From a virus (lineage: Duplodnaviria > Heunggongvirae > Uroviricota > Caudoviricetes), in the IMG/VR virus record IMGVR_UViG_2695420521_000002, positions 35,400 to 99,399 of that record: 64,000 nucleotides of DNA. The stretch is one strand, 5' to 3'. Made by a program: the position numbers and the translations under genes. This document shows, piece after piece, positions 44,556 through 55,226 of the stretch. The notes under the pieces are model-generated. The model had not been told where the DNA came from. It searched no databases and saw nothing but the letters and a program-made list of their open reading frames with translations. Numbering within the stretch: position 1 is the first letter of the stretch; the number at the start of each line of letters is the position of its first letter.

Positions 44556-45398
44556 TCATCCGCGAAAACCTGTAGGAATATAAAATTCCTTTTCTTTTCG
44601 TGTAGATAGGACCATATTCAGAGCTTCGTTTACCGTCATGCAGTGAGGCAGATTATCGAAGTTTGATACTCCACCAACTTCAGGTGAACGCTTGTTCTTC
44701 AGGTAAGCATATTTCCGCGCTGCCGCCTCTACTTTCTGCTTGAACTCATGTTTTTGAGAGCGTTTTTTGGATAACCGCAGATTGTCAGCCTTTGCTTTTG
44801 CCTTAGCGATCCATGAAGTCAATTTTTTGAGGCTGGTCGTTCCGGCACCGCCGGAAACTGATCTTTTTGTTTTTTTAACTTGTGACTTCTTATTCTTTAT
44901 TGCCACGTCATCCTGACAGGGGGAGGGGGTATCATTTTGACATGGGGGTGTGGATAAAAAATCAAATAAAGCCAATGCCTTAGCGAGAACAGCTTTAACC
45001 TTGGTTGCGGCTGAAGAGATCTTTAATTTGCTTTCAATTAGCGCATTTTTGGCTTGTTGTGCGAAGGCCAAAAAGGATGGGGTAAACCGGTACAGGTTAG
45101 CGCGACGTTCACGGTGATCGCCGATAACAATCTCTACTGACAGGATTCCTTTGTTTACAGCTTCACGGAATGCACGAACGACGGTTGATTGGCTATAACC
45201 AGTTTCTGCCGCGATCAGGCGGTGAGGCTTGTGAATGAAGTATTCACTGGTTGTTGCCGCGAGATTTGCACATTGCGACAGGATATGCCCGGCGCTACGG
45301 GATAGACCGGAGTGTGTTACAAAGCAGGCCAATTCATAGCCAGAAAAAGTAAAATCGCTCATCGTTATACAGCTCAGGAAAGTGACTTTAGCCAGCAT
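44556..45398 (-). CDS. repL: lytic replication initiator RepL-like protein
   Basis: 280-aa ORF immediately downstream of kilA under the same operator; size and position as in P1. Confidence 0.65.
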   Translation of the reverse strand: MLAKVTFLSCITMSDFTFSGYELACFVTHSGLSRSAGHILSQCANLAATTSEYFIHKPHRLIAAETGYSQSTVVRAFREAVNKGILSVEIVIGDHRERRANLYRFTPSFLAFAQQAKNALIESKLKISSAATKVKAVLAKALALFDFLSTPPCQNDTPSPCQDDVAIKNKKSQVKKTKRSVSGGAGTTSLKKLTSWIAKAKAKADNLRLSKKRSQKHEFKQKVEAAARKYAYLKNKRSPEVGGVSNFDNLPHCMTVNEALNMVLSTRKEKEFYIPTGFRG

Positions 45399-45427: not shown

Positions 45428-46228
45428 TTAGCGCGTTGCCGCGACAGGTACCAGCACACCAGCATCAAGCAATCGCTTCATCAGCCACTGCTGACCTTTG
45501 CCGGTTATACGAGTCGTGAAAGAAATCCTGCTTCCATTGCTTGTATCGATCACGGTTTCTTTAAGGGTGAAATACCCACGGGATATGTATTCTTGTTTGG
45601 GGACGTTCCTGCGTTCACCGGTTGCGATCAGAATTCCGTTATCACGCAACCAGGTGAAGAGATAGTTTTGGCCCAGGCCGAGCACTTTGGCATAGTTGCC
45701 GATTAGAACCCCGCTGGCGGTAGCAACGCGTTCGGCGAATTCGACTTTAGGTGCATCCATAAGCATTTTTTGCTCCAGCCGTTGCTTTTGCTCTGCCAGG
45801 TCGGCAGCCAAACGGAGAGCTTCAGGGAGACTCTGCGGAATAGCTGGTTGTAATCTTCCGGCTCGATAGTCGATAAATGTCTGGTTTACCTTCAGCCGAA
45901 ACGCGGGAGAAATCCAGCCTGCGTACTCCACAGCGAGCAATTCATGGGCAAAAGTGCCGCCGCCACGGCCTTCGAACGAAACTATGCAATTCTGCATAGT
46001 TTCTTTTTCAAGCTCTTCGATGAGCTGTTTGGCTGACAGCGTTCTTAGCCATTGAGCTGGCGCTTTATGGGTACCGAGTCCGCTTGCTCTGTGTAGAGCA
46101 TTAAGGTTGTAACGGCCAGCGCGGTCGGTCGTAATTTCAACACCACAAATAACAGGCAGAGTGGTTGAAGGATCGACATTTTGATGAAGGTTTGATATAT
46201 TCATATCTGCATTGAGTGTTTGTTGCAT
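45428..46228 (-). CDS. kilA: KilA protein (KilA-N domain plus antirepressor-type C-terminal domain)
   Basis: 266-aa ORF; C-terminal half homologous to C-terminal part of adjacent ant. Confidence 0.75.
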   Translation of the reverse strand: MQQTLNADMNISNLHQNVDPSTTLPVICGVEITTDRAGRYNLNALHRASGLGTHKAPAQWLRTLSAKQLIEELEKETMQNCIVSFEGRGGGTFAHELLAVEYAGWISPAFRLKVNQTFIDYRAGRLQPAIPQSLPEALRLAADLAEQKQRLEQKMLMDAPKVEFAERVATASGVLIGNYAKVLGLGQNYLFTWLRDNGILIATGERRNVPKQEYISRGYFTLKETVIDTSNGSRISFTTRITGKGQQWLMKRLLDAGVLVPVAATR

Positions 46229-46392: not shown

Positions 46393-47427
46393 TTAACCTA
46401 TTGCTACTGGTTTTAACAAACCAGCATCAAGTAGCTTGCGAGTTAACCACTGCTGGCCTTTACCCGTTAATTGGGGCGTCAGCCGTATCTGATAGCCATT
46501 TTCATCATCCAGCACCACTTCTTTCACCGTGAAATACCCGGCGTTAATGTACTGCTGGCGCGGTACGTTTTTGCGCGCACCAAAAGCCATGAGAATGCCG
46601 TTCTGGCGCAACCATGAGAAAAGGGCGTTTTGCTTAAGTCCAACGACCTTTGCAAAGTTCCCGATCAGGATTCCATTAGCCACTGATACCCGGTCGGCAA
46701 AATCGACTTTAGGGGCAGCGGCCACCAGCTGTTGTTCCAGCTGCATTTTCTGTTCTGCCAACTCGGCAGCCAGGCGTAGAGCTTCTGGTAATGTTTGGGG
46801 GATCTATGGGGTAGGGGAGTTTGCCTGCTGCAATTCTTCCAGTTTGTCGATCAGCGAACGGCGGACCGCTTTTGACTCGCGCGCGGCAACTCGCAGAGCT
46901 TGTTTGTAGGTCATGGTTATAATATCTATTTCTGCGCCGTTTTTTTGACCTACGAAAATTTCGTAGGTTTCTCCTTCAAGCTCATCCTTAACTCTGGCAA
47001 TGAAATCATTGTTGCGAACTGGTTTTTCGCTACATAATTTCCGTGCCTCATTGACCATCTTCAACAATGTTTGGCTGTCGATTGTGTCTCCGGTGTTGGG
47101 GATGACATTCAGGGCTGGTGCTGGCGTAGCTGAAGCAACAGGTGCTGGTTTTTCAACATTTAAATTATTACCGGTCATTCTATGTGCCTCCTTTCTCATT
47201 TCTGCTGCCACTGTTGCGTAACGTAGACGTCCTTGTTCAATCAAATAATCCCTGATCTCGGCTATCAGTAGCCTGTTGATCACAGCCTTATCTGTTCGGG
47301 TATAAAAACGTCTGGTTATCATGAAATAGTTGGCAATTGCGCCGGGGATCTCCCGTGTCGGCATACAGGTTGTATGCAAAGCGATCGCTTCGGCTATTTC
47401 ATTACGGGTGACGAGAGGTGTTTTCAT
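46393..47427 (-). pseudogene. ant: antirepressor gene ant interrupted by a single in-frame TAG (amber) codon at 46804-46806
   Basis: ORFs 46804-47427 (207 aa) and 46393-46761 share one frame; homology to KilA C-terminal domain continues across the stop (...ANSPTP*IPQTLPEALRLAAELAEQK...). Confidence 0.65.
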
Positions 47428-47645
47428 AAACCCCCCTGAACGTTGGCAGAGAAGGGGAGGCTCCAGTAACTAAGTGAATTGCGCGAGTTAGTTGAAAAAC
47501 GGGCAGTAAAAATGCAGGGGCCATCAGGCAATTGAGAGCGTGCTTCGTCTTCTGTTGCTGCGATAACGAAGTGATAGTGGTGTTTTTTACAGGAATAGAA
47601 ACGCCAGATGAATTCTTGGCGTGCGCAAGGATTGGCATTAACCAT
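47424..47645 (-). CDS. icd: Icd (interference with cell division), translationally coupled to ant
   Basis: 73-aa ORF; stop TGA overlaps ant start ATG (ATGA); SD GAGG overlaps predicted c4 target. Confidence 0.7.
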   Translation of the reverse strand: MVNANPCARQEFIWRFYSCKKHHYHFVIAATEDEARSQLPDGPCIFTARFSTNSRNSLSYWSLPFSANVQGGL

Positions 47646-47699
47646 AGTTACGGCCTCACAATCAGGTTTAACAACCTGCTACCCGCTGCTAAACAGGTG

Positions 47700-47780
47700 G
47701 CAGGACGTGACGGGGTTAGCAGACTGGCGATTGTGAAACCAGCAGGCCGAAGCCTCCCCATCACGCCCCACCATAATTTG
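47700..47780 (-). ncRNA. c4: c4 antisense repressor RNA (approximate bounds)
   Basis: Transcript segment carrying CACAATC and CTGCTAACC, complementary to upstream GGTTTAGCAG/GATTGTG and to downstream TGTTTAGCAG/GATTGTGAGG at the icd SD. Confidence 0.5.
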
Positions 47781-47958
47781 GGCGTAACGCGGTTTTATGG
47801 ACACAAAAATACCGCAATATCGGATATCTGCGGCTGTCCGCACAATCATTCAGGCTGCTAAACCCGGTCGCAGAATTTGCTACGACGGCGGAACTATAAG
47901 CCTGAACGATTAAAAGGTCAATATGATGCGAAAAGATAGCATTCGCGACTTAAAAATA

Positions 47959-47975
47959 CAAATTTATTAGAGCAT
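47959..47975 (-). promoter_or_regulatory. C1 operator-like site (16/17) at immI promoter (Op51-like)
   Basis: Plus strand AAATTTATTAGAGCATT. Confidence 0.65.
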
Positions 47976-48072
47976 TAATTGTATAATAAATACATAAATG
48001 GATCTAATAACCTCTTTTTTTTAAAGGCGAAAATATGTACCCTAAATGGGTTATAAGGCAGGTGAGGTTATA

Positions 48073-48711
48073 ATGAGAAAACTATTACTACCGTTATTAT
48101 TTATGGCTGGGACTGTTAATGCAGCATCAAGTGTAAAGGAGATTTGTACCGACTACACGAAATACCTTGGGCACGTTTACGGTTTCACTGTCAGTCAAGA
48201 CGGCAAGATGAAAAAAGCTCTCCAGAATGATATGACGCGCTTAAGTTTGTCTGAAGCAATGGTTCAGCAAGAAATATATAAGGTTGCGACAGATGATGCT
48301 GCAAAAATGTATTATTCGAAATTTCTTAATCCTAATCTTAATGAATATAACCGTTCGGCTTTTAATCAGATGGTAGCGTATTGTGAAACTGCACCAGATA
48401 TGATGATTCCTAGTTGGGCTGTATTAGTGGCTAATGGAAAAATTCGCAAAGAAGACCAAGGAAAATCTTTAAGTAGCTATATAAATAGCGAACAATTTCT
48501 GAATGCGCGTGGCATGCGCACTCAAAATACTCAAGGTGCGCTTGAGCGGAGGGCTTTAGGGAGTGCTGATGCAAATGATACTGATAATTTGACCCCAGGA
48601 ATAAAAAAATGTGTTGAAACTAAGTTAGCTCTAATGAAACGGGACAGCCCTAACATTCCTGTTTCACAACTTACCGCTACGGCAACTAGTCTCTGCAAAG
48701 ACGGGCTTTAA
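48073..48711 (+). CDS. secreted/periplasmic hypothetical protein (candidate superinfection-exclusion Sim-like factor)
   Basis: About 212 aa from ATG 48073; signal peptide MRKLLLPLLFMAGTVNA; AT-rich gene next to immI. Confidence 0.45.
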   Translation: MRKLLLPLLFMAGTVNAASSVKEICTDYTKYLGHVYGFTVSQDGKMKKALQNDMTRLSLSEAMVQQEIYKVATDDAAKMYYSKFLNPNLNEYNRSAFNQMVAYCETAPDMMIPSWAVLVANGKIRKEDQGKSLSSYINSEQFLNARGMRTQNTQGALERRALGSADANDTDNLTPGIKKCVETKLALMKRDSPNIPVSQLTATATSLCKDGL

Positions 48712-48740
48712 ATGTAAAGATATTCGAAGGATAGTGATAA

Positions 48741-49523
48741 GTGAAAAAATTAATGTTTAAACTATTGTTGCCGTTTGCTTTTGTTAGCAGCTATTCATTT
48801 GCAAATTCAATAGCTATTCCTAATGAGTATTCTGTTTCCGAGAAGGACTATAATTTAGTCAGAAACTATATGGTATCTGCTTCGCTTGCATATACTATGA
48901 ATACGAAAGCTACTGTTTTTAGCTTGCCATCAGATATTGTTGATTCATTCAAGAAAAATGAAATAGCAGCCTTAGATGAATGGAGTCAAACTTCTAGAAT
49001 TTGGGGTAAGATCGAAAGAATAACATTGTCTAATGGGTATCCTGTTATTGAGCTTGTAAGCCCAGGACAAGCAAAATCGTCTTTGAACTATATAAGATTA
49101 GAAGATACGACTGGCAACAGTCACATAGTAAAAGAACTAACAAAAGAACAAGAAATTTATTCATTATGTTCTGGTGTTAAATTTAGACAAATTCCCACAT
49201 TTCAGTATTGCTCATTCTATCTTAATCCTATTGAAGCAAATCTGGAATATGTTGGTAACTATTTCATTCCTCAATATAAAGATAATTTAATAAAGACAGT
49301 AGCCGAGAATAGAACGCTACCGATTGGCGCGTTGACAACAAGATTTATCGGGTACATTATGCTTGTTGGTATTTCTAAAAATAAAAACGATATGGAAAAA
49401 ATAAATTCGTGCACTCCATGGAAGAAAGAATGCAAATCGTATTATGAGTCAATAATAGTAAATGCAACAAAATACTATGCCGATAATGCGAAAGGCTTGG
49501 CTGATTATCTTGAAAAGCTTTAA
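48741..49523 (+). CDS. secreted/periplasmic hypothetical protein (candidate Sim-like factor)
   Basis: 260 aa; signal peptide MKKLMFKLLLPFAFVSSYSFA; AT-rich. Confidence 0.45.
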   Translation: MKKLMFKLLLPFAFVSSYSFANSIAIPNEYSVSEKDYNLVRNYMVSASLAYTMNTKATVFSLPSDIVDSFKKNEIAALDEWSQTSRIWGKIERITLSNGYPVIELVSPGQAKSSLNYIRLEDTTGNSHIVKELTKEQEIYSLCSGVKFRQIPTFQYCSFYLNPIEANLEYVGNYFIPQYKDNLIKTVAENRTLPIGALTTRFIGYIMLVGISKNKNDMEKINSCTPWKKECKSYYESIIVNATKYYADNAKGLADYLEKL

Positions 49524-49557
49524 TGCAACATAATATATCTCAAGTCATATACAGAAT

Positions 49558-49590
49558 GCGCCCGTTTGTGGGCGCTGTAGTTATTTTATC
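49558..49590 (+). terminator. terminator-like hairpin after secreted-protein gene pair
   Basis: GCGCCC-GTTTGT-GGGCGC followed by T-rich TGTAGTTATTTTATC. Confidence 0.45.
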
Positions 49591-49613: not shown

Positions 49614-50234
<621 letters not shown>

Positions 50235-50244
50235 GAGGGCTGAT

Positions 50245-50856
50245 ATGGGGTTTAATGTTGCTTCAGTAAAGTCTTATGTATCTTCGGCATTAACGACGAC
50301 ATTATTTGGCTCCGGCGTTGGTGAACGGGAAGTTGGTAAGCTGACGTCAGTCATCATGAACAAAATGCTGTTTGCGCAAGGATGGCAGTTCTCTGTCGAA
50401 GTTGATGGACTGGAGGGGGCAGACTTCTTTGCCAAAGATATTACCTACCACGATTACAGCATCGAATATGAAACGATTAAAATCGGCGGAGGGAATATCC
50501 TTCAACCAACGGAGCGTTCGCCTGGGCAGATAACAATGATGGTCAGGGATACCGTTGATGGCCTCGTTTTGGACTGGTTTAAGACGGCAAAAAGTCGGGT
50601 GATCAATCCGGACGGTACCGGGAATATACCGTCTAAATATTTGCTCAATGTGCGTATTTATCGGTTGCTGTCTTCCGGCTTAACCAAACTGGAAAATGAG
50701 ATGACGGTATTCCCGGTCACTACCGGCGATATCACCTATGCGCGAGATCAGGTTACTGAATTTAAGTCATTCCCAATGACCTTCGCATTGCACAGCACGT
50801 TTAACCAATCCTCAAGTTCTTTGGCTTCCCTTCTGGGCTTTAGTTTTTCTCTTTGA
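50245..50856 (+). CDS. tail-module structural protein (possible tube-type protein)
   Basis: 203-aa ORF, tight spacing in operon upstream of tape measure. Confidence 0.4.
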   Translation: MGFNVASVKSYVSSALTTTLFGSGVGEREVGKLTSVIMNKMLFAQGWQFSVEVDGLEGADFFAKDITYHDYSIEYETIKIGGGNILQPTERSPGQITMMVRDTVDGLVLDWFKTAKSRVINPDGTGNIPSKYLLNVRIYRLLSSGLTKLENEMTVFPVTTGDITYARDQVTEFKSFPMTFALHSTFNQSSSSLASLLGFSFSL

Positions 50857-50870
50857 ATTAAGGAGCAAGG

Positions 50871-51752
50871 ATGCTTTTACCCCTTTTCCCGTTACCATCG
50901 CGGCCAACTGAATTGATCCAGTTTCGTCAGCCAAATATTGCTGATGCGATGCGTTTCAACTCGATAACACCGGAGGAACAAGAACAACAGACAACGGCGT
51001 ATTTAAAAGCCTTGCTGGCTGAACCCGCGAAACATGATCCACTGACATGGACGGCGCAGGACCGGATTACCGCGTTATGGTGGATATTTACCGGCTCCCG
51101 TGAAACACCGGTCGAGACATTCACCTACACCTGTAAACATTGCGGTAAAGAGCATTATTACGATTGCGATATGAATGCCCTGGCTGAAGATATCCAGGTC
51201 CTGGAAGTGGAACCGTTCATTGACGATATTGAGGTGTCTGTAGAGGGAGTGCCTTATCAATGGCGTATCGTGCCGCTTGATGGTTGGGCAATGGAAATGC
51301 TGGAGATGCGCCGTGCAGCATTGCCACCTGAAGACGACGCGGAATTCAAAGAAGCGATCGTTGATTTGCGTTTTTGGGAATTCGCTTATCAGTGTGAGCT
51401 TTATAACGATGTTAGCGGTACTCGTGAAGATCAGGCTGAGCGTCGTTATGAAACGATTAAACGGATGGCCATTGATACTGAATTTATGAAGCTGGCGGCA
51501 CACATCCGACTGGCTCATGAAAAGCTCGTACATGGTTTGCCGTGCTACATCGATAAAGGTGAAATGCGTCTTCGTCTCCCGCCGCATAAATGCCCAAATC
51601 AGGATAAAAAGGAGTCCACAGAGGGTGCATATACCCGTCTGTGGGTGCCCTTTCGGGCTACCGACTTCATTCCACAGGTGGGGATTGAAAAGCTATCAGA
51701 CCTTAGTGTCCAACCTGGTTTTGTATGGGGGTATACCGATTCAGGACGCTGA
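50871..51752 (+). CDS. tail-module hypothetical protein
   Basis: 293-aa ORF immediately upstream of sit. Confidence 0.4.
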   Translation: MLLPLFPLPSRPTELIQFRQPNIADAMRFNSITPEEQEQQTTAYLKALLAEPAKHDPLTWTAQDRITALWWIFTGSRETPVETFTYTCKHCGKEHYYDCDMNALAEDIQVLEVEPFIDDIEVSVEGVPYQWRIVPLDGWAMEMLEMRRAALPPEDDAEFKEAIVDLRFWEFAYQCELYNDVSGTREDQAERRYETIKRMAIDTEFMKLAAHIRLAHEKLVHGLPCYIDKGEMRLRLPPHKCPNQDKKESTEGAYTRLWVPFRATDFIPQVGIEKLSDLSVQPGFVWGYTDSGR

Positions 51753-51833
51753 AAGGCTTACTGAATCCTATGCGTTTTTCCTGTTGGAGAAACTGGAAGA
51801 AAAACTTAAACCGAAACGGTAGGCGATAAGATC

Positions 51834-54800
51834 ATGGAAAGAAAAAACGCCAACATTGACGATGTTATAAGGACAGTTGAAACCGCCAGCGCAAAAGAGC
51901 TGGAAGAGCTTGCAGGTATCCGGGAAGCTGTTGAAGATTTGAAAGGGGGACGCGTTGCAACTGTTGATCCTGTCTCTCGCAGCGTGTCGGCATTAAATCG
52001 CACAATCGAAAATTCCCGGCCTGACTTTGTGGCCAAAGCGCCATCCGTAGACCCTATTGTTGACGCAATGAAACGGCTTAATTTAGGGGACGTTTCTCGT
52101 GTAGTTCAGGAAGATGTTGCTCAACAGGAACAGCGGGCCAAATCAACCACACCAAAGGGAAAAAAACGACGCAGGAAGGCTATACCAGAGGATGTAAAGG
52201 CACAACGGACCGAAGCAGCCGAACACGCTCGCGAAATGTTCGGTCAAAAAGGCGGTGCGCAAAAAAGCCAAAACCAACGCGATGCGCGTGGTCGTTTTAT
52301 TGGGAAGTCAGGGAGTAAGGCCGCAGCGGAAGATGCCCGTGCTGAACGTGCTGAAAAAGCCAGGCGCAAAGAGGATGATGAGCGTCTAAATGCTGAATCG
52401 GGTTTATTAAAAAAACTGTCAAAAGTAGCTGAAGGCATAGGTAACCCTTCAGAGACTCGTGCCGTCGATGCTTTAGGTTATGCCGTTGCTGGTCCATTGT
52501 GGGCAGCAGGAAAGGAGCTTGGCGGAATATCAAAAGAAGTTGGCGGTTCGCTTAATGGTGCCAGAAAGTCAATTGCCGATGTGATTCGTGGCAATGACGA
52601 TAACAGCCGTAGAAAAGGTTTTTTTAGGCGTAAATCGCAAAGTAGTGCCGATGTCGTTCAGGTTAACACCCAAAAACGGACGGTTCAGGAACTTCAGGAT
52701 CAGACCAGCGAAATTAAAGAAGGCAATGACAAGATTCTCAGCGCCCTTGATCAGATAGCCAAAAACACCGGGAAAAAGAAGGGCGGCTTGCTGTCCAAAT
52801 TATTTAGCCTGTTAGGGAAGGGGGCCGGTGGTATTGCTTCCCTTATTTTTGGCCGTGGGGCACTAAAGAAAGTTGGCTCGATGGCACTAGGCGCTTTAGG
52901 TATAAAAAAAGTTGCAAGCTTATTGGGCTTTGGTGGGAAAAAAGCTGCTGCCAAAGAAGCTGGCGAATTGGCTACTCGCGGTGCCGGAAAACTTGCAACT
53001 AAGGGATTGGGGAAACTAGGTGTTAAGGCTCTTGCAAAGGGGGCTTTACGCGCAATTCCGCTAGTCGGCACGGTGGCTGGAGGTATCTATGATGCGGTAA
53101 CCGGTTGGAATGATACAGAAGCACAACGTCGGACCTTTGGGCTTAAGGATGGGGAAGATCCATCTTTTCAGCAAAAAGCGGCTTATACACTGGCTAACGT
53201 TCTCGATATGGGAGGACTGGTATCTGGTATTAGCAGTGCCATTGGTGGCGTTCTCAAATCACTTGGATTTGAGGATATCGGCAATATGTTGCAATCATTT
53301 TCGACGGAAAGTATTGCACAGGCCATTGATAGTGGGATTACCAATTTAGAAACATACATTTCTAACCTTGGTGACACCATATCCACAACATTCAACGATT
53401 ACACAGCCAAGATTGGCGATGCTATTTCAGCTTGGTTCAGTGACACAACCAAGAGTCTGAACGAAAAATTAGACGCCATCAAAGACTTCTTTACTGTCGA
53501 TAACCTGAAAAAGGTTTTCAGTGATTCAATTGATAGTGCAATTGATTTCATTAAGAACCCTGGGAAATACATTAAAGAGGCTGGCAGTAATTTATGGCAT
53601 ACCGTAAAAGAACATGCGGGCGAGGCAATGGATAAGACAGCAGATGCTGTTATTCAGAGTACCCCTCTTGGCTTAGTTGCATCAACATTAGTCAATAAAG
53701 CGAATGCGAAAGAGGTCACGCCTGAATTAAAAACACCTGCTAAAGAAAGTCAGGAGAGGAATACTCCTAAGTCTGAAGATATCCCTAAAAAGGCTAATAT
53801 TGTCACTCGTGTTGTAAATGCATCCCTGGATACGGCTCAGAATGGCAATAAAATAGTTAAAGAGACAGCCAATCAGATTATCAATGCAAATGCCGTAGAA
53901 ACAGGAAATAAAGCGGCACAAACAATTGATGCTGCTTTGGGCCAGTCTGCTACAGGCAAGGAGGAAGCATTAAGTGCATATGAGATAGATAAACGTCGAT
54001 TTAACAACGGCAAGGATGTTTCTTTGCCAAAATTAAATGCTGCCGGATACCAATGGATTTCTGACAATGCCGATTATTTTGATGAGCTTGAACGTAAGTA
54101 TGGGCTTGAAAAAGGGATTCTGTCAGCAGTTGCATCCGCAGAGTCTAGTGCTGGCCAGAGAACTGGAAATCCAGTAGACAAAAACGGAAACAAACTTTCA
54201 TCTGCCCTTGGGGCTTTTCAGATCACTAAAGGTACAAGGGAGGATCTTGGACTCAGCGATGCTGATGCCATGGATACACGAAAAGCAGCTGATGGTGCCG
54301 CCAGATACCTAAGTATGCTGATGAACCGTTATAACGGTGATCAGGGGCGTGCAATAGCTGCCTATCATGCTGGTATGGGGCATGTTGATAAGGGGAGAGT
54401 AGTCGCCGGTACCGGCGAATATGTGACTCGTGTCAGAGGGTATCAGCAGATGCTCAATAATGGTGCCGTTTATGGCTCTAAGGTAGATCATAGCGCACCA
54501 GCAATTTACGAAAAGATACCTGATAACGCCGTTATCGATCAGTCTACTGGTCTGGCGTTTACCCCTGGTGATAGCCCGTTTGAGAAAGGCGGTCTGGTAG
54601 ACAAAATCGGCAATGCTGTTGGCGTTAACGATCTGGTCAACAAATTCATGAATGGCCGGGGGATGCGTCGGGAAGTCGTCCAGGGAACCCTCGAAGAACG
54701 TGCACGAGGAAGGGGAACCGCAACGGCAGCTGGCAATGTGTATGTTGACACACCTATGCCAGTTGAAGAGGCACGTCCGGTGGCCAACAACTCAAGTTAC

Positions 54801-55226
54801 TTTGACCAGCTCGGCGCACAAATGGGGATTGATGGACTGTATGACAAACTCATTAATGCCCGGGGAATGCGCTCAAATAATTCTCCTCAACCAGCTTCCA
54901 CGTCCCAGATGACGACTGTCGCCAACGATTTGCAGCAACCAACCGGTCGTATGCAGATAGACGGGCAGGTTATTAGTGACCTTGGCGGTTCCGGTGCCAA
55001 GCCGACAATGCAGTTGGCTGATAATACCGTTTCACTTGATGGTGAAACGAAGCGGCTGTTTGCGCAGATGACCTCATTGCTTGCCAGGATTGAAGAGCAC
55101 ACCAAAGACTCGGCGAAAGGCCAGGGAACTGTCGTAAAGGTCAGCACGCCTCAGCCGGGCGTTATGCGCACGGTACCACTGTCAATTGATGATCCGTTGA
55201 TGAATGACTACGCGAGAGTTGATTGA
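51834..55226 (+). CDS. sit: tape-measure-like injection protein with C-terminal lytic transglycosylase domain (Sit)
   Basis: 1130 aa; Gly/Ala/Lys-rich amphipathic repeats; SLT-like segment ...SAESSAGQRTGNPV...GAFQITKGT...AAYHAGMGHV. Confidence 0.8.
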   Translation: MERKNANIDDVIRTVETASAKELEELAGIREAVEDLKGGRVATVDPVSRSVSALNRTIENSRPDFVAKAPSVDPIVDAMKRLNLGDVSRVVQEDVAQQEQRAKSTTPKGKKRRRKAIPEDVKAQRTEAAEHAREMFGQKGGAQKSQNQRDARGRFIGKSGSKAAAEDARAERAEKARRKEDDERLNAESGLLKKLSKVAEGIGNPSETRAVDALGYAVAGPLWAAGKELGGISKEVGGSLNGARKSIADVIRGNDDNSRRKGFFRRKSQSSADVVQVNTQKRTVQELQDQTSEIKEGNDKILSALDQIAKNTGKKKGGLLSKLFSLLGKGAGGIASLIFGRGALKKVGSMALGALGIKKVASLLGFGGKKAAAKEAGELATRGAGKLATKGLGKLGVKALAKGALRAIPLVGTVAGGIYDAVTGWNDTEAQRRTFGLKDGEDPSFQQKAAYTLANVLDMGGLVSGISSAIGGVLKSLGFEDIGNMLQSFSTESIAQAIDSGITNLETYISNLGDTISTTFNDYTAKIGDAISAWFSDTTKSLNEKLDAIKDFFTVDNLKKVFSDSIDSAIDFIKNPGKYIKEAGSNLWHTVKEHAGEAMDKTADAVIQSTPLGLVASTLVNKANAKEVTPELKTPAKESQERNTPKSEDIPKKANIVTRVVNASLDTAQNGNKIVKETANQIINANAVETGNKAAQTIDAALGQSATGKEEALSAYEIDKRRFNNGKDVSLPKLNAAGYQWISDNADYFDELERKYGLEKGILSAVASAESSAGQRTGNPVDKNGNKLSSALGAFQITKGTREDLGLSDADAMDTRKAADGAARYLSMLMNRYNGDQGRAIAAYHAGMGHVDKGRVVAGTGEYVTRVRGYQQMLNNGAVYGSKVDHSAPAIYEKIPDNAVIDQSTGLAFTPGDSPFEKGGLVDKIGNAVGVNDLVNKFMNGRGMRREVVQGTLEERARGRGTATAAGNVYVDTPMPVEEARPVANNSSYFDQLGAQMGIDGLYDKLINARGMRSNNSPQPASTSQMTTVANDLQQPTGRMQIDGQVISDLGGSGAKPTMQLADNTVSLDGETKRLFAQMTSLLARIEEHTKDSAKGQGTVVKVSTPQPGVMRTVPLSIDDPLMNDYARVD

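What the first reader, a model, noticed from the sequence alone, without database searches (positions are those of the whole stretch)
47976..49590. Two AT-rich secreted-protein genes beside immI, candidate Sim-type exclusion factors
Both proteins have classic signal peptides, no recognisable enzymatic motifs, AT-rich coding sequence, and lie divergent from the Op51 operator with a terminator-like hairpin after them. Location and periplasmic targeting fit my recollection of the P1 sim locus, but sequence identity cannot be confirmed here, so they may be different periplasmic factors.
Basis: inference. Interest (0 to 1): 0.45.

Follow-up and report, generated by a model that had tools for sequence, protein, structure and literature searches.

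The report
Rare sim exclusion cassette of P1-like prophage
These two genes are a rare version of phage P1's sim locus, which stops a second phage from injecting its DNA, and one of the two exported proteins carries a copy of a conserved piece of the phage's own DNA-injection protein, a testable clue to how the block works.

Summary
Two co-oriented, AT-rich genes (48073-48711 and 48741-49523) encode proteins with typical Sec signal peptides. They lie between the C1 operator Op51 (47960-47976) and the late promoter LPsit (49618-49636), which is exactly where P1 carries simA-simB-simC. A hairpin follows at 49558-49575.

ORF2 is a diverged SimC homologue: 33% identity over 248 aa, E 3e-46, with four conserved cysteines. 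ORF1 is the full-length form of a gene of which P1's 52-aa "SimA" is only the 5' remnant. There is no SimB.

This gene combination is rare. It occurs in 3 of 5,426 complete E. coli genomes, against 126 with P1-type simB-simC. The slot itself is already described as a low-GC variable region.

Two results go beyond the finding:
- The SimC-like model has an OB-fold core. Its best match among solved structures is a secreted "nucleic-acid-binding lipoprotein".
- The SimA family carries, in a predicted disordered linker, a 35-50 aa copy of a conserved C-terminal segment of Sit, the phage's tape-measure/transglycosylase. The similarity is held at the protein level, not the DNA level.

My reading is a periplasmic block of DNA injection, with SimA possibly acting as a decoy for Sit. 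Exclusion is inferred by homology. The decoy mechanism is a hypothesis.

The parts
47960..47976 (-). C1 repressor operator Op51 (Oc4). It marks the left edge of the variable slot.
   Evidence: AATGCTCTAATAAATTT, one mismatch from consensus. It aligns with the annotated P1 Oc4. The P7 allele diverges immediately after it.
47979..48008 (+). Promoter region equivalent to P1's predicted PsimA. The window has TATAAT at 47982-47987 and TCTAAT at 48003-48008.
   Evidence: Position-by-position alignment with the P1 annotation. This is a prediction only; the consensus scan did not call it.
48073..48711 (+). simA-like gene, full length (212 aa; an alternative upstream ATG lies at 48046). It encodes a secreted protein with a helical N-domain, a disordered linker and a disulfide-linked helical hairpin.
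   Evidence: and 80 (phrog_3933, E 5e-87). The first ~44 aa match P1 SimA.
48073..48123 (+). Sec signal peptide of the SimA-like protein (MRKLLLPLLFMAGTVNA|A).
   Evidence: Heuristic n/h/c-region and -3/-1 rule. It is conserved across the family.
48436..48591 (+). Sit-like segment of the SimA-like protein (GKIRKEDQGKSLSSYINSEQFLNARGMRTQNTQGALERRALGSADANDTDNL).
   Evidence: The AlphaFold2 pLDDT is below 50 over most of this stretch.
48741..49523 (+). simC-like gene (260 aa, GTG start), a diverged homologue of the P1 SimC exclusion protein.
   Evidence: BLASTP 33% identity over 248 aa, E 3e-46. phrog_14355 at E 1e-39. Four conserved cysteines.
48741..48803 (+). Sec signal peptide of the SimC-like protein (MKKLMFKLLLPFAFVSSYSFA|N).
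48996..49220 (+). Predicted OB-fold beta-barrel core of the SimC-like protein (mature residues ~65-139).
49558..49589 (+). Terminator-like GC hairpin plus T-rich tail, closing the two-gene unit.
   Evidence: The wider fold is not significant against shuffles.
49618..49636 (+). Late promoter LPsit (AAATGACTA...TAGAAT). It marks the right edge of the variable slot and the start of the pmgC-tub-pmgB-sit operon.
   Evidence: It aligns with the annotated P1 and P7 LPsit. All five alleles compared converge here.
54639..54746 (+). Conserved segment of Sit (aa 936-971, NKFMNGRGMRREVVQGTLEERARGRGTATAAGNVYV) that the SimA family copies.
54843..54884 (+). Second, short copy of the motif in Sit (aa 1004-1017, DKLINARGMRSNNS), inside a 43-aa insertion found only in P1-type Sit.

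Best explanation
The region is the sim (superimmunity / superinfection-exclusion) cassette of a P1-like phage-plasmid, in a rare allelic form.

Structure of the unit. It is a two-gene unit, probably transcribed away from the C1 operator Op51 and ending at a hairpin just before the late promoter LPsit. Both products are exported to the periplasm by Sec signal peptides and are probably disulfide-bonded there.

Gene 2. It encodes a 33%-identical homologue of P1 SimC. By my knowledge of Kliem & Dreiseikelmann 1989 and Maillou & Dreiseikelmann 1990, SimC is the processed periplasmic protein that lets P1 adsorb but prevents its DNA from reaching the cytoplasm. I infer the same role here, possibly with a different specificity. 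Its core is an OB-fold.

Gene 1. It encodes the full-length SimA-domain protein, the ancestral and widespread occupant of this slot. P1's simA is its 5' stump.

Proposed mechanism for gene 1. A flexible linker in the protein carries a copy of a conserved C-terminal segment of Sit, the tape-measure/injection transglycosylase that leaves the tail first. I propose it acts as a periplasmic decoy. It would either occupy whatever that Sit segment must bind during injection, or bind incoming Sit itself, and so stall genome delivery.

What is shown and what is inferred.
- Shown: locus identity, homology, export signals, fold class, and the shared Sit motif.
- Inferred by homology: exclusion.
- Hypothesis: the decoy mechanism.

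My separate estimates are about 0.95 that this is a sim allele, about 0.6 that it excludes P1-like phages, and about 0.3 for the Sit-decoy mechanism.
For: Locus identity.
- The flanks are 96% identical to P1 on both sides of simABC.
- The P1 annotation shows the same order: Oc4 - PsimA - simA/B/C - LPsit - pmgC - tub - pmgB - sit.

SimC homology.
- BLASTP E 3e-46 and phrog_14355 E 1e-39.
- The family is tiny: phmmer against 1.84 billion representatives finds only five real relatives, two of them full-length.
- Four cysteines and 52 columns are invariant.

SimA as a full-length gene.
- P1 SimA equals the N-terminus of ORF1. P1 diverges at codon ~45-52, where simB begins.
- Full-length homologues exist in E. 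coli, Salmonella, Klebsiella and Cronobacter elements.
- In every locus examined they sit directly upstream of pmgC-tub-pmgB-sit, even where immI is not adjacent.

Export. Both proteins have typical signal peptides.

Folds.
- SimA-like: confident helical N-domain (pLDDT above 90), a linker with pLDDT below 50, and a C-terminal hairpin.

The Sit motif.
- A SimA-family HMM hits the window's Sit at E 6e-6 among 495 ORF segments; the next best hit has E 4.6.
- A profile built only from five SimA proteins found elsewhere, with no Sit rows and no window rows, hits Sit at E 7e-14.
- ORF1 independently matches the Sit family phrog_2533 at profile positions 936-978.
- The best pair is 28/36 identical.
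- The motif is conserved in all 10 Sit orthologues examined, between variable flanks.
- N..GMR.Q is the only invariant element in the C-terminal half of SimA.
- Identical residues mostly use different codons (identical codons for 3/14, 7/17 and 5/17 shared residues). The similarity is therefore old and maintained at the protein level.

Precedent. The T4 exclusion protein Imm binds the tape-measure protein (bioRxiv 10.64898/2026.03.06.709160).
Against: - No phenotype was tested.
- In P1 the sim phenotype was attributed to SimC while SimA is truncated, so full-length SimA is not needed for P1-type exclusion.
- The window's own ORF1 has one of the more diverged copies of the motif: 15/33 identical to its resident Sit, against 28/36 for the best pair in the family.
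- Some family members keep only the short F.N..GMR.Q core.
- Other alleles of the same slot hold unrelated envelope proteins: P7 lipoprotein/membrane protein, YfjT-family proteins, and an SH3 protein. Position alone therefore does not imply exclusion.
- Whether PsimA fires in a lysogen is unknown. It abuts a C1 operator.
- The SimC-like model rests on four sequences. Its mean pLDDT is 72, and only one of five models was above 60.
- No fold match was found for the SimA N-domain.
Confidence: 0.55

Rival explanations
1. The two proteins are ordinary prophage 'moron' envelope proteins for lysogenic conversion (surface modification, stress or serum resistance, defence against unrelated phages or colicins). 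They have no role in excluding P1-like phages. The SimC similarity reflects shared ancestry without shared function.
For: The slot is a known low-GC variable region (PMC9603915). In other elements it holds unrelated envelope cargo. SimC identity is only 33%. simABC are dispensable for P1 plaque formation (PMC10695390).
Against: The SimC homology is full-length with conserved cysteines. The SimC family is confined to P1-like elements. SimA is conserved across four host genera and is always next to the sit operon. SimA shares a selected motif with Sit, which is hard to explain for a phage-unrelated cargo gene.
Confidence: 0.17
2. The SimA-like protein is a direct inhibitor of the incoming Sit transglycosylase, working like T4 Spackle against the gp5 lysozyme. 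The helical domain would bind the SLT domain and the Sit-like linker would dock where the native segment packs. It would not be a decoy for a host partner.
For: The motif lies about 60-70 residues after the SLT region of Sit. SimA is periplasmic, small, helical and disulfide-bonded. A periplasmic inhibitor of a tail lysozyme is an established exclusion route (T4 Sp, from my own knowledge).
Confidence: 0.13
3. The SimC-like protein acts through its OB-fold by binding the incoming DNA, or another polyanion or oligosaccharide, in the periplasm. It would not target a phage protein.
For: The best structural match is a secreted 'putative nucleic acid-binding lipoprotein', followed by many ssDNA-binding OB domains. 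There is a weak PF12869 hit.
Against: OB folds bind many ligand types. The model has only moderate confidence. Phage DNA is generally thought to cross the periplasm inside a protein conduit (general knowledge). There is no sequence evidence for a nucleic-acid-binding surface.
Confidence: 0.08
4. The Sit-like segment in SimA is a functionless relic of an old duplication or recombination between neighbouring genes. SimA would serve the phage's own cycle, for example as a periplasmic helper at lysis.
For: The two genes are only about 3 kb apart in every element, which favours exchange. Some SimA variants have lost most of the segment.
Against: Synonymous sites are scrambled while the residues are kept. 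The core N..GMR.Q is invariant in 15 diverse SimA proteins and the segment is conserved in all 10 Sit proteins. Tail assembly is cytoplasmic, whereas SimA is exported.
Confidence: 0.07

Closest known systems
Phage P1 SimC (sim superimmunity/exclusion protein; phrog_14355)
   Same: Same genomic slot and orientation. Similar length (260 vs 264 aa). N-terminal signal peptide. Four conserved cysteines. 33% identity across the whole protein.
   Different: Two-thirds of the residues differ, so specificity may differ. It is paired with a full-length SimA rather than with SimB. No phenotype is known for this allele.
Phage P1 SimA and SimB ('putative superimmunity accessory functions')
   Same: The first ~44 residues of ORF1, including the signal peptide, are nearly identical to P1 SimA, and the upstream promoter region is shared.
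   Different: P1 SimA stops at 52 aa, whereas ORF1 continues to 212 aa with a folded domain, the Sit-like linker and a C-terminal hairpin. SimB has no counterpart here.
T4 Imm, which binds the tape-measure protein, and T4 Spackle, a periplasmic inhibitor of the gp5 tail lysozyme
   Same: These are envelope-located proteins made by a resident myovirus that stop a second phage at genome delivery. The tape measure is a proven target.
   Different: No sequence or fold relationship was detected. Imm is a membrane protein, whereas these are soluble exported proteins. Mimicry of a tape-measure segment has not, to my knowledge, been described.
Ltp of Streptococcus phage TP-J34 and gp15 of HK97 (exclusion proteins acting on tape-measure-dependent DNA entry)
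   Same: The functional logic is the same: a prophage-encoded envelope protein blocks DNA entry after adsorption through the tape-measure step (PMC3952083 listed; otherwise from my own knowledge).
   Different: They are a lipoprotein and an inner-membrane protein respectively. The sequences and the phage and host groups are unrelated.
PF12869 (tRNA_anti-like) secreted OB-fold lipoproteins, e.g. PDB 3f1z
   Different: Sequence support is below threshold (E 0.014 in 1 of 4 members). SimC has extra N- and C-terminal helical parts and an SPase I signal rather than a lipoprotein signal.

Membership tests
P1 SimC family (phrog_14355) | Full-length sequence homology to P1 SimC | tested here: met
   BLASTP 33% identity over 248 aa, E 3e-46. 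phrog_14355 E 1e-39. phmmer recovers the SimC-type proteins P0031 and P0032.
P1 SimC family (phrog_14355) | Cleavable N-terminal signal peptide (the P1 Sim precursor is processed) | tested here: met
   Heuristic only: KK n-region, LLLPFAFV core, SFA|N site. SignalP was not available.
P1 SimC family (phrog_14355) | Conserved cysteine pairs (C..C in the barrel; CTPWxxxC) | tested here: met
   C122, C136, C203 and C210 are invariant in the four-member alignment.
P1 SimC family (phrog_14355) | Location between Op51/c4 and LPsit/pmgC, divergent from c4 | tested here: met
P1 SimC family (phrog_14355) | Blocks superinfecting P1 after adsorption and before DNA entry | not testable with these tools
   This needs plating, transduction and DNA-entry assays.
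SimA-domain proteins (phrog_3933) | Homology to the family, including the P1 SimA N-terminus | tested here: met
   phrog_3933 E 5e-87. 28 relatives at 47-98% identity.
SimA-domain proteins (phrog_3933) | Invariant N..GMR.Q core after the helical domain, similar to Sit | tested here: met
P1 SimB (phrog_14329) | A SimB homologue is present in the cassette | tested here: not met
   No similarity between ORF1 and SimB (E 5.4). There is no third ORF between 47976 and 49590 on the + strand.
PF12869 tRNA_anti-like OB-fold | Pfam match above the gathering threshold | tested here: inconclusive
Catalogued anti-phage defence systems (PADLOC-DB 2.0) | Match to any model | tested here: not met
   No hit for ORF1, ORF2, P1 SimC or P1 SimB.

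The most novel reading that the evidence does not exclude
The full-length SimA-domain protein is a periplasmic molecular mimic of a conserved segment of the tape-measure/transglycosylase Sit. On this reading it is the ancestral, widespread superinfection-exclusion determinant of P1- and D6-like phage-plasmids, and it blocks genome delivery by competing for the partner of that segment. The textbook P1 'simA' would then be a dead stump. This would be the first exclusion protein shown to work by copying part of the injection machinery.
Probability: 0.25. Interest if true: 0.7.

Novelty: new variant of a known kind. Interest (0 to 1): 0.45.

Why it matters
To my knowledge, the molecular mechanism of P1 Sim exclusion has not been worked out since its description in 1989-90. 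None of the papers I read here explains it.

This allele offers three testable handles:
- It shows that the reference phage's simA is a remnant of a conserved secreted protein.
- It assigns an OB-fold core to SimC.
- It links the SimA family to a specific, conserved 35-50 aa segment of Sit. That link gives concrete experiments: motif mutants, escape mutants in sit, and binding assays.

There is also a practical side. P1-like phage-plasmids are common in clinical and livestock E. coli and Salmonella, and some carry resistance genes (PMC9603915). They were found in about 470 of 5,426 complete E. coli genomes. Which sim allele a plasmid carries may decide which related elements or P1-based vectors can enter a strain.

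If the genes turn out to be inert, the result is still a clean annotation of a variable cassette.

Tried and rejected
1. Recent gene conversion between sit and simA as the source of the shared motif. Rejected, because identical residues mostly use different codons.

2. A strict pairing of the SimC-like allele with the window's unusual Sit SLT-region allele.
   - Both other plasmids with this cassette share that Sit allele at 100%.
   - However, the allele is in 47 of 456 genomes and the cassette in only 3. One example, NZ_CP027223, has the allele with a different cassette.
   - The association may be simple linkage or common descent, so I left it open.

3. Fold searches.
   - The SimC-like model gave nothing significant against the viral BFVD library.
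   - The afdb50 library was not available.

4. A profile search of solved-structure sequences with the SimC alignment gave only chance-level hits.

5. A search of the 5.8-billion-protein set with the motif alignment returned four short fragments and said nothing about wider distribution.

6. P0035, a 3,107-aa repetitive protein at E 8e-4 in the SimC search, was dismissed as a repeat artefact.

7. The precomputed PF14566 label on some SimA relatives was not reproduced for ORF1 by my own Pfam scan.

8. A SimC-family HMM found no second relative among the window's ORFs.

9. The Lobocka 2004 P1 genome paper could not be retrieved, so statements about the original sim experiments rest on my own knowledge.
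Full report
WHAT IS THERE

The window is a P1-like (Punavirus) phage-plasmid. On the minus strand lie repL (44556-45398), kilA (45428-46228), ant, icd (47424-47645), the C4 antisense RNA (47693-47778) and its a1b1 targets (47847-47899), found by Rfam. A C1 operator lies at 47960-47976.

On the plus strand two ORFs follow: 48046/48073-48711 and 48741-49523. After them come a GC hairpin (49558-49575) and the genes pmgC, tub, pmgB and sit (49668-55226).

GC falls to 0.32-0.41 between about 47750 and 49700, against 0.47 for the window. Both proteins have typical Sec signal peptides with SPase I sites, and each mature protein has four cysteines. There are no Pfam, NCBIfam or PADLOC hits. The likely start of ORF1 is ATG 48073, behind a GGTGAGG ribosome-binding site, as RefSeq annotates in near-identical plasmids.

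IDENTITY OF THE LOCUS

Megablast against phage records matches only the two flanks of the query, about 20% of it, at 96% identity. In P1 these flanks bracket simA-simB-simC. The P1 annotation shows the same layout: Oc4 (Op51), predicted PsimA, simA/B/C, late promoter LPsit, pmgC, tub, pmgB, sit.

Five alleles were aligned: the window, P1, phage Ro157c2YLVW, plasmid LR890336 and P7. They diverge either directly after the operator (P7) or inside simA (P1). All converge again exactly at LPsit, which is 49618-49636 in the window. The region is thus a replaceable cassette between two regulatory landmarks. The literature already lists simABC as one of eight low-GC variable regions of P1-like phage-plasmids (PMC9603915).

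ORF2 IS A SimC HOMOLOGUE

- BLASTP against P1 SimC gives 33% identity over 248 residues, E 3e-46. ORF2 also matches the SimC PHROG at E 1e-39.
- The family is remarkably small. An exhaustive phmmer scan of 1.84 billion representative proteins finds five real relatives. These fall into three full-length types (the window type, the P1 type and a third at 36% identity) plus fragments.
- Four cysteines are invariant.
- An AlphaFold2 model was built from only four sequences. Its mean pLDDT is 72, and the other four models were poor. It shows N-terminal helices, a six-stranded barrel and a helical C-terminal part.
- One of four family members gives a sub-threshold PF12869 (tRNA_anti-like OB-fold) hit.
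- I therefore treat an OB-fold core as likely but not established.

ORF1 IS THE FULL-LENGTH SimA

P1 SimA (52 aa) is nearly identical to the first ~44 residues of ORF1 and then stops. P1 simB starts at a methionine that aligns in frame with a methionine of full-length homologues. P1 simA is therefore the 5' stump left when a simB-simC block replaced the rest of the gene.

Full-length homologues ('SimA domain protein', phrog_3933) occur in P1- and D6-like elements of E. coli, Salmonella, Klebsiella and Cronobacter. In every locus examined they sit directly upstream of pmgC-tub-pmgB-sit. This holds even where immI is not the neighbour. They are usually followed by a small YfjT-family secreted protein.

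The AlphaFold2 model (15 sequences, mean pLDDT 80) has three parts:
- a confident helical domain (residues 1-105, pLDDT above 90);
- a low-confidence linker (about 110-155);
- a disulfide-closed helical hairpin.

No solved structure resembles it.

THE SHARED MOTIF WITH Sit

The linker of ORF1 reads ...SEQFLNARGMRTQNTQGALERRALG.... Sit of the same window reads ...NKFMNGRGMRREVVQGTLEERARGRG... at residues 936-971, and has a second short copy (LINARGMRSNN) at 1004-1017. The statistical and comparative support is as follows:

- A SimA-family HMM run without filters over all 495 stop-to-stop segments of the window scores Sit at E 6e-6. The next best hit has E 4.6.
- A profile made only from five SimA proteins from other elements, with no Sit rows and no window rows, scores Sit at E 7e-14.
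- The PHROG library independently aligns ORF1 140-182 to positions 936-978 of the Sit family profile (E 0.004).
- Other family members are much closer to Sit than ORF1 is: 28/36 identical for P0012, and 27/48 for the Ro157c2 protein.
- The segment is conserved in all ten Sit orthologues examined and is flanked by variable stretches.
- N..GMR.Q is the only invariant element in the C-terminal half of the SimA family.
- Identical residues mostly use different codons (identical codons for 3/14, 7/17 and 5/17 shared residues). The likeness is therefore old and held by selection on the protein, not by recent DNA exchange.

HOW IT PROBABLY WORKS

By homology to P1 SimC, ORF2 most likely blocks a superinfecting P1-like phage after adsorption and before its DNA reaches the cytoplasm. 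The phenotype is known to me from Kliem & Dreiseikelmann 1989 and Maillou & Dreiseikelmann 1990, which are cited.

For ORF1 I propose a decoy. An exported protein presents, on a flexible linker, a copy of a conserved segment of the tape-measure/transglycosylase that is the first protein to leave the tail. It would compete for whatever that segment binds, or bind Sit itself. The tape measure is a proven target of exclusion in another myovirus: T4 Imm binds the T4 tape-measure protein.

The steps differ in how well they are supported:
- Shown: homology, export signals, fold class and the shared motif.
- Inferred: the exclusion phenotype.
- Hypothetical: the decoy mechanism.

Several facts weigh against this reading:
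- P1 excludes with a truncated SimA.
- The window's ORF1 carries one of the more diverged motif copies.
- Some family members keep only the short core.
- Nothing is known about expression in the lysogen.

Rivals are listed separately: unrelated envelope cargo, a Spackle-like inhibitor of the Sit transglycosylase, DNA binding by the OB-fold, and a functionless relic.

HOW COMMON IT IS

Among 5,426 complete E. coli genomes, 468 match the flanks. The alleles are distributed as follows:

| Feature | Genomes |
|---|---|
| This full cassette | 3 (97.6-98.8% identity) |
| This simA allele | 8 |
| P1-type simB-simC | 126 |

One of 72,556 plasmid records holds the full cassette.

The window's Sit is itself mosaic. 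Residues ~700-950, which include the SLT region, are only 35-50% identical to P1 Sit and are closer to a Cronobacter phage Sit. The two other plasmids with this cassette share that Sit allele exactly. However, the allele occurs in 47 genomes, so I do not claim a functional pairing.

VERDICT

As an annotation it is a new allelic variant of a known, already-described variable locus, so its baseline interest is modest. The added value is twofold. P1 simA is recognised as a remnant of a conserved secreted protein. And the SimA family shares a protein-level motif with Sit, which gives a concrete route to the long-unresolved mechanism of Sim exclusion.

Noticed in passing
window 46804-46806 (minus strand), within ant1/ant2 (46393-47427): The antirepressor gene carries an in-frame amber stop: TAG where P1 and plasmid LR890336 have TCG (Ser). 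This splits Ant into 207-aa and 122-aa ORFs. The rest aligns to P1 Ant1 at 90% over all 347 residues in one frame. It could be a real ant-null prophage or a sequencing error.
   Followed up: partly
window 51834-55226 (sit), especially residues ~700-950: Sit is mosaic. The SLT-containing region is only 35-50% identical to P1 Sit but 60-83% identical to Cronobacter phage JK004 Sit, while the rest is 96-100% P1-like. This allele is present in 47 of 456 E. coli genomes with a P1-like sit, including the two other plasmids that carry the same sim cassette.
   Followed up: partly
L004 (NZ_CP007392.1, E. coli ST2747 chromosome, 2.21-2.24 Mb): The closest copy of the cassette (98.8%) lies in a record labelled chromosome. 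There a P1-like block (rdgC, repB, parAB, immI, sim, pmgC, truncated sit) runs straight into lambdoid tail genes. This is either an integrated or rearranged P1-like element or an assembly chimera.
   Followed up: no
L001 3147-3320 (P1 simA/simB junction) versus window 48046-48220: P1 simA ends with a TAA one codon before a methionine that starts simB. That methionine aligns in frame with the '..ESMRKK..' methionine of full-length SimA proteins, which marks the recombination joint that truncated simA in P1.
   Followed up: yes
window 47982-47987: The window, like plasmid LR890336, has a perfect TATAAT where P1's annotated PsimA -35 hexamer is TTTAAT, a few bases from the C1 operator. This could change promoter use or repressor control of the cassette.
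   Followed up: no
L003 (LR890336), L002 (Ro157c2YLVW), L006 (P7), L007 (SJ46): the slot between Op51 and LPsit: Other alleles of the same slot carry different exported proteins. LR890336 has simA plus 116-aa, 158-aa and a 344-aa SH3-domain protein. Ro157c2YLVW has simA plus a 158-aa YfjT/YkfB-family protein. P7 and SJ46 have an outer-membrane lipoprotein plus a membrane protein and no simA.
   Followed up: partly
window Sit residues ~975-1017 (54756-54884): P1-type Sit proteins have a 43-residue insertion, absent from D6-like, Klebsiella and Cronobacter Sit, that contains a second short GMR motif copy. It resembles the short-motif class of SimA proteins (…NAPGMRQQPS…).
   Followed up: partly
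whole window: The window holds eleven C1-operator-like sites (three or fewer mismatches) against 0.34 expected by chance, as expected for a P1-type immunity network. They include a perfect site at 27469-27485 that overlaps a 2-mismatch site on the other strand.
   Followed up: no
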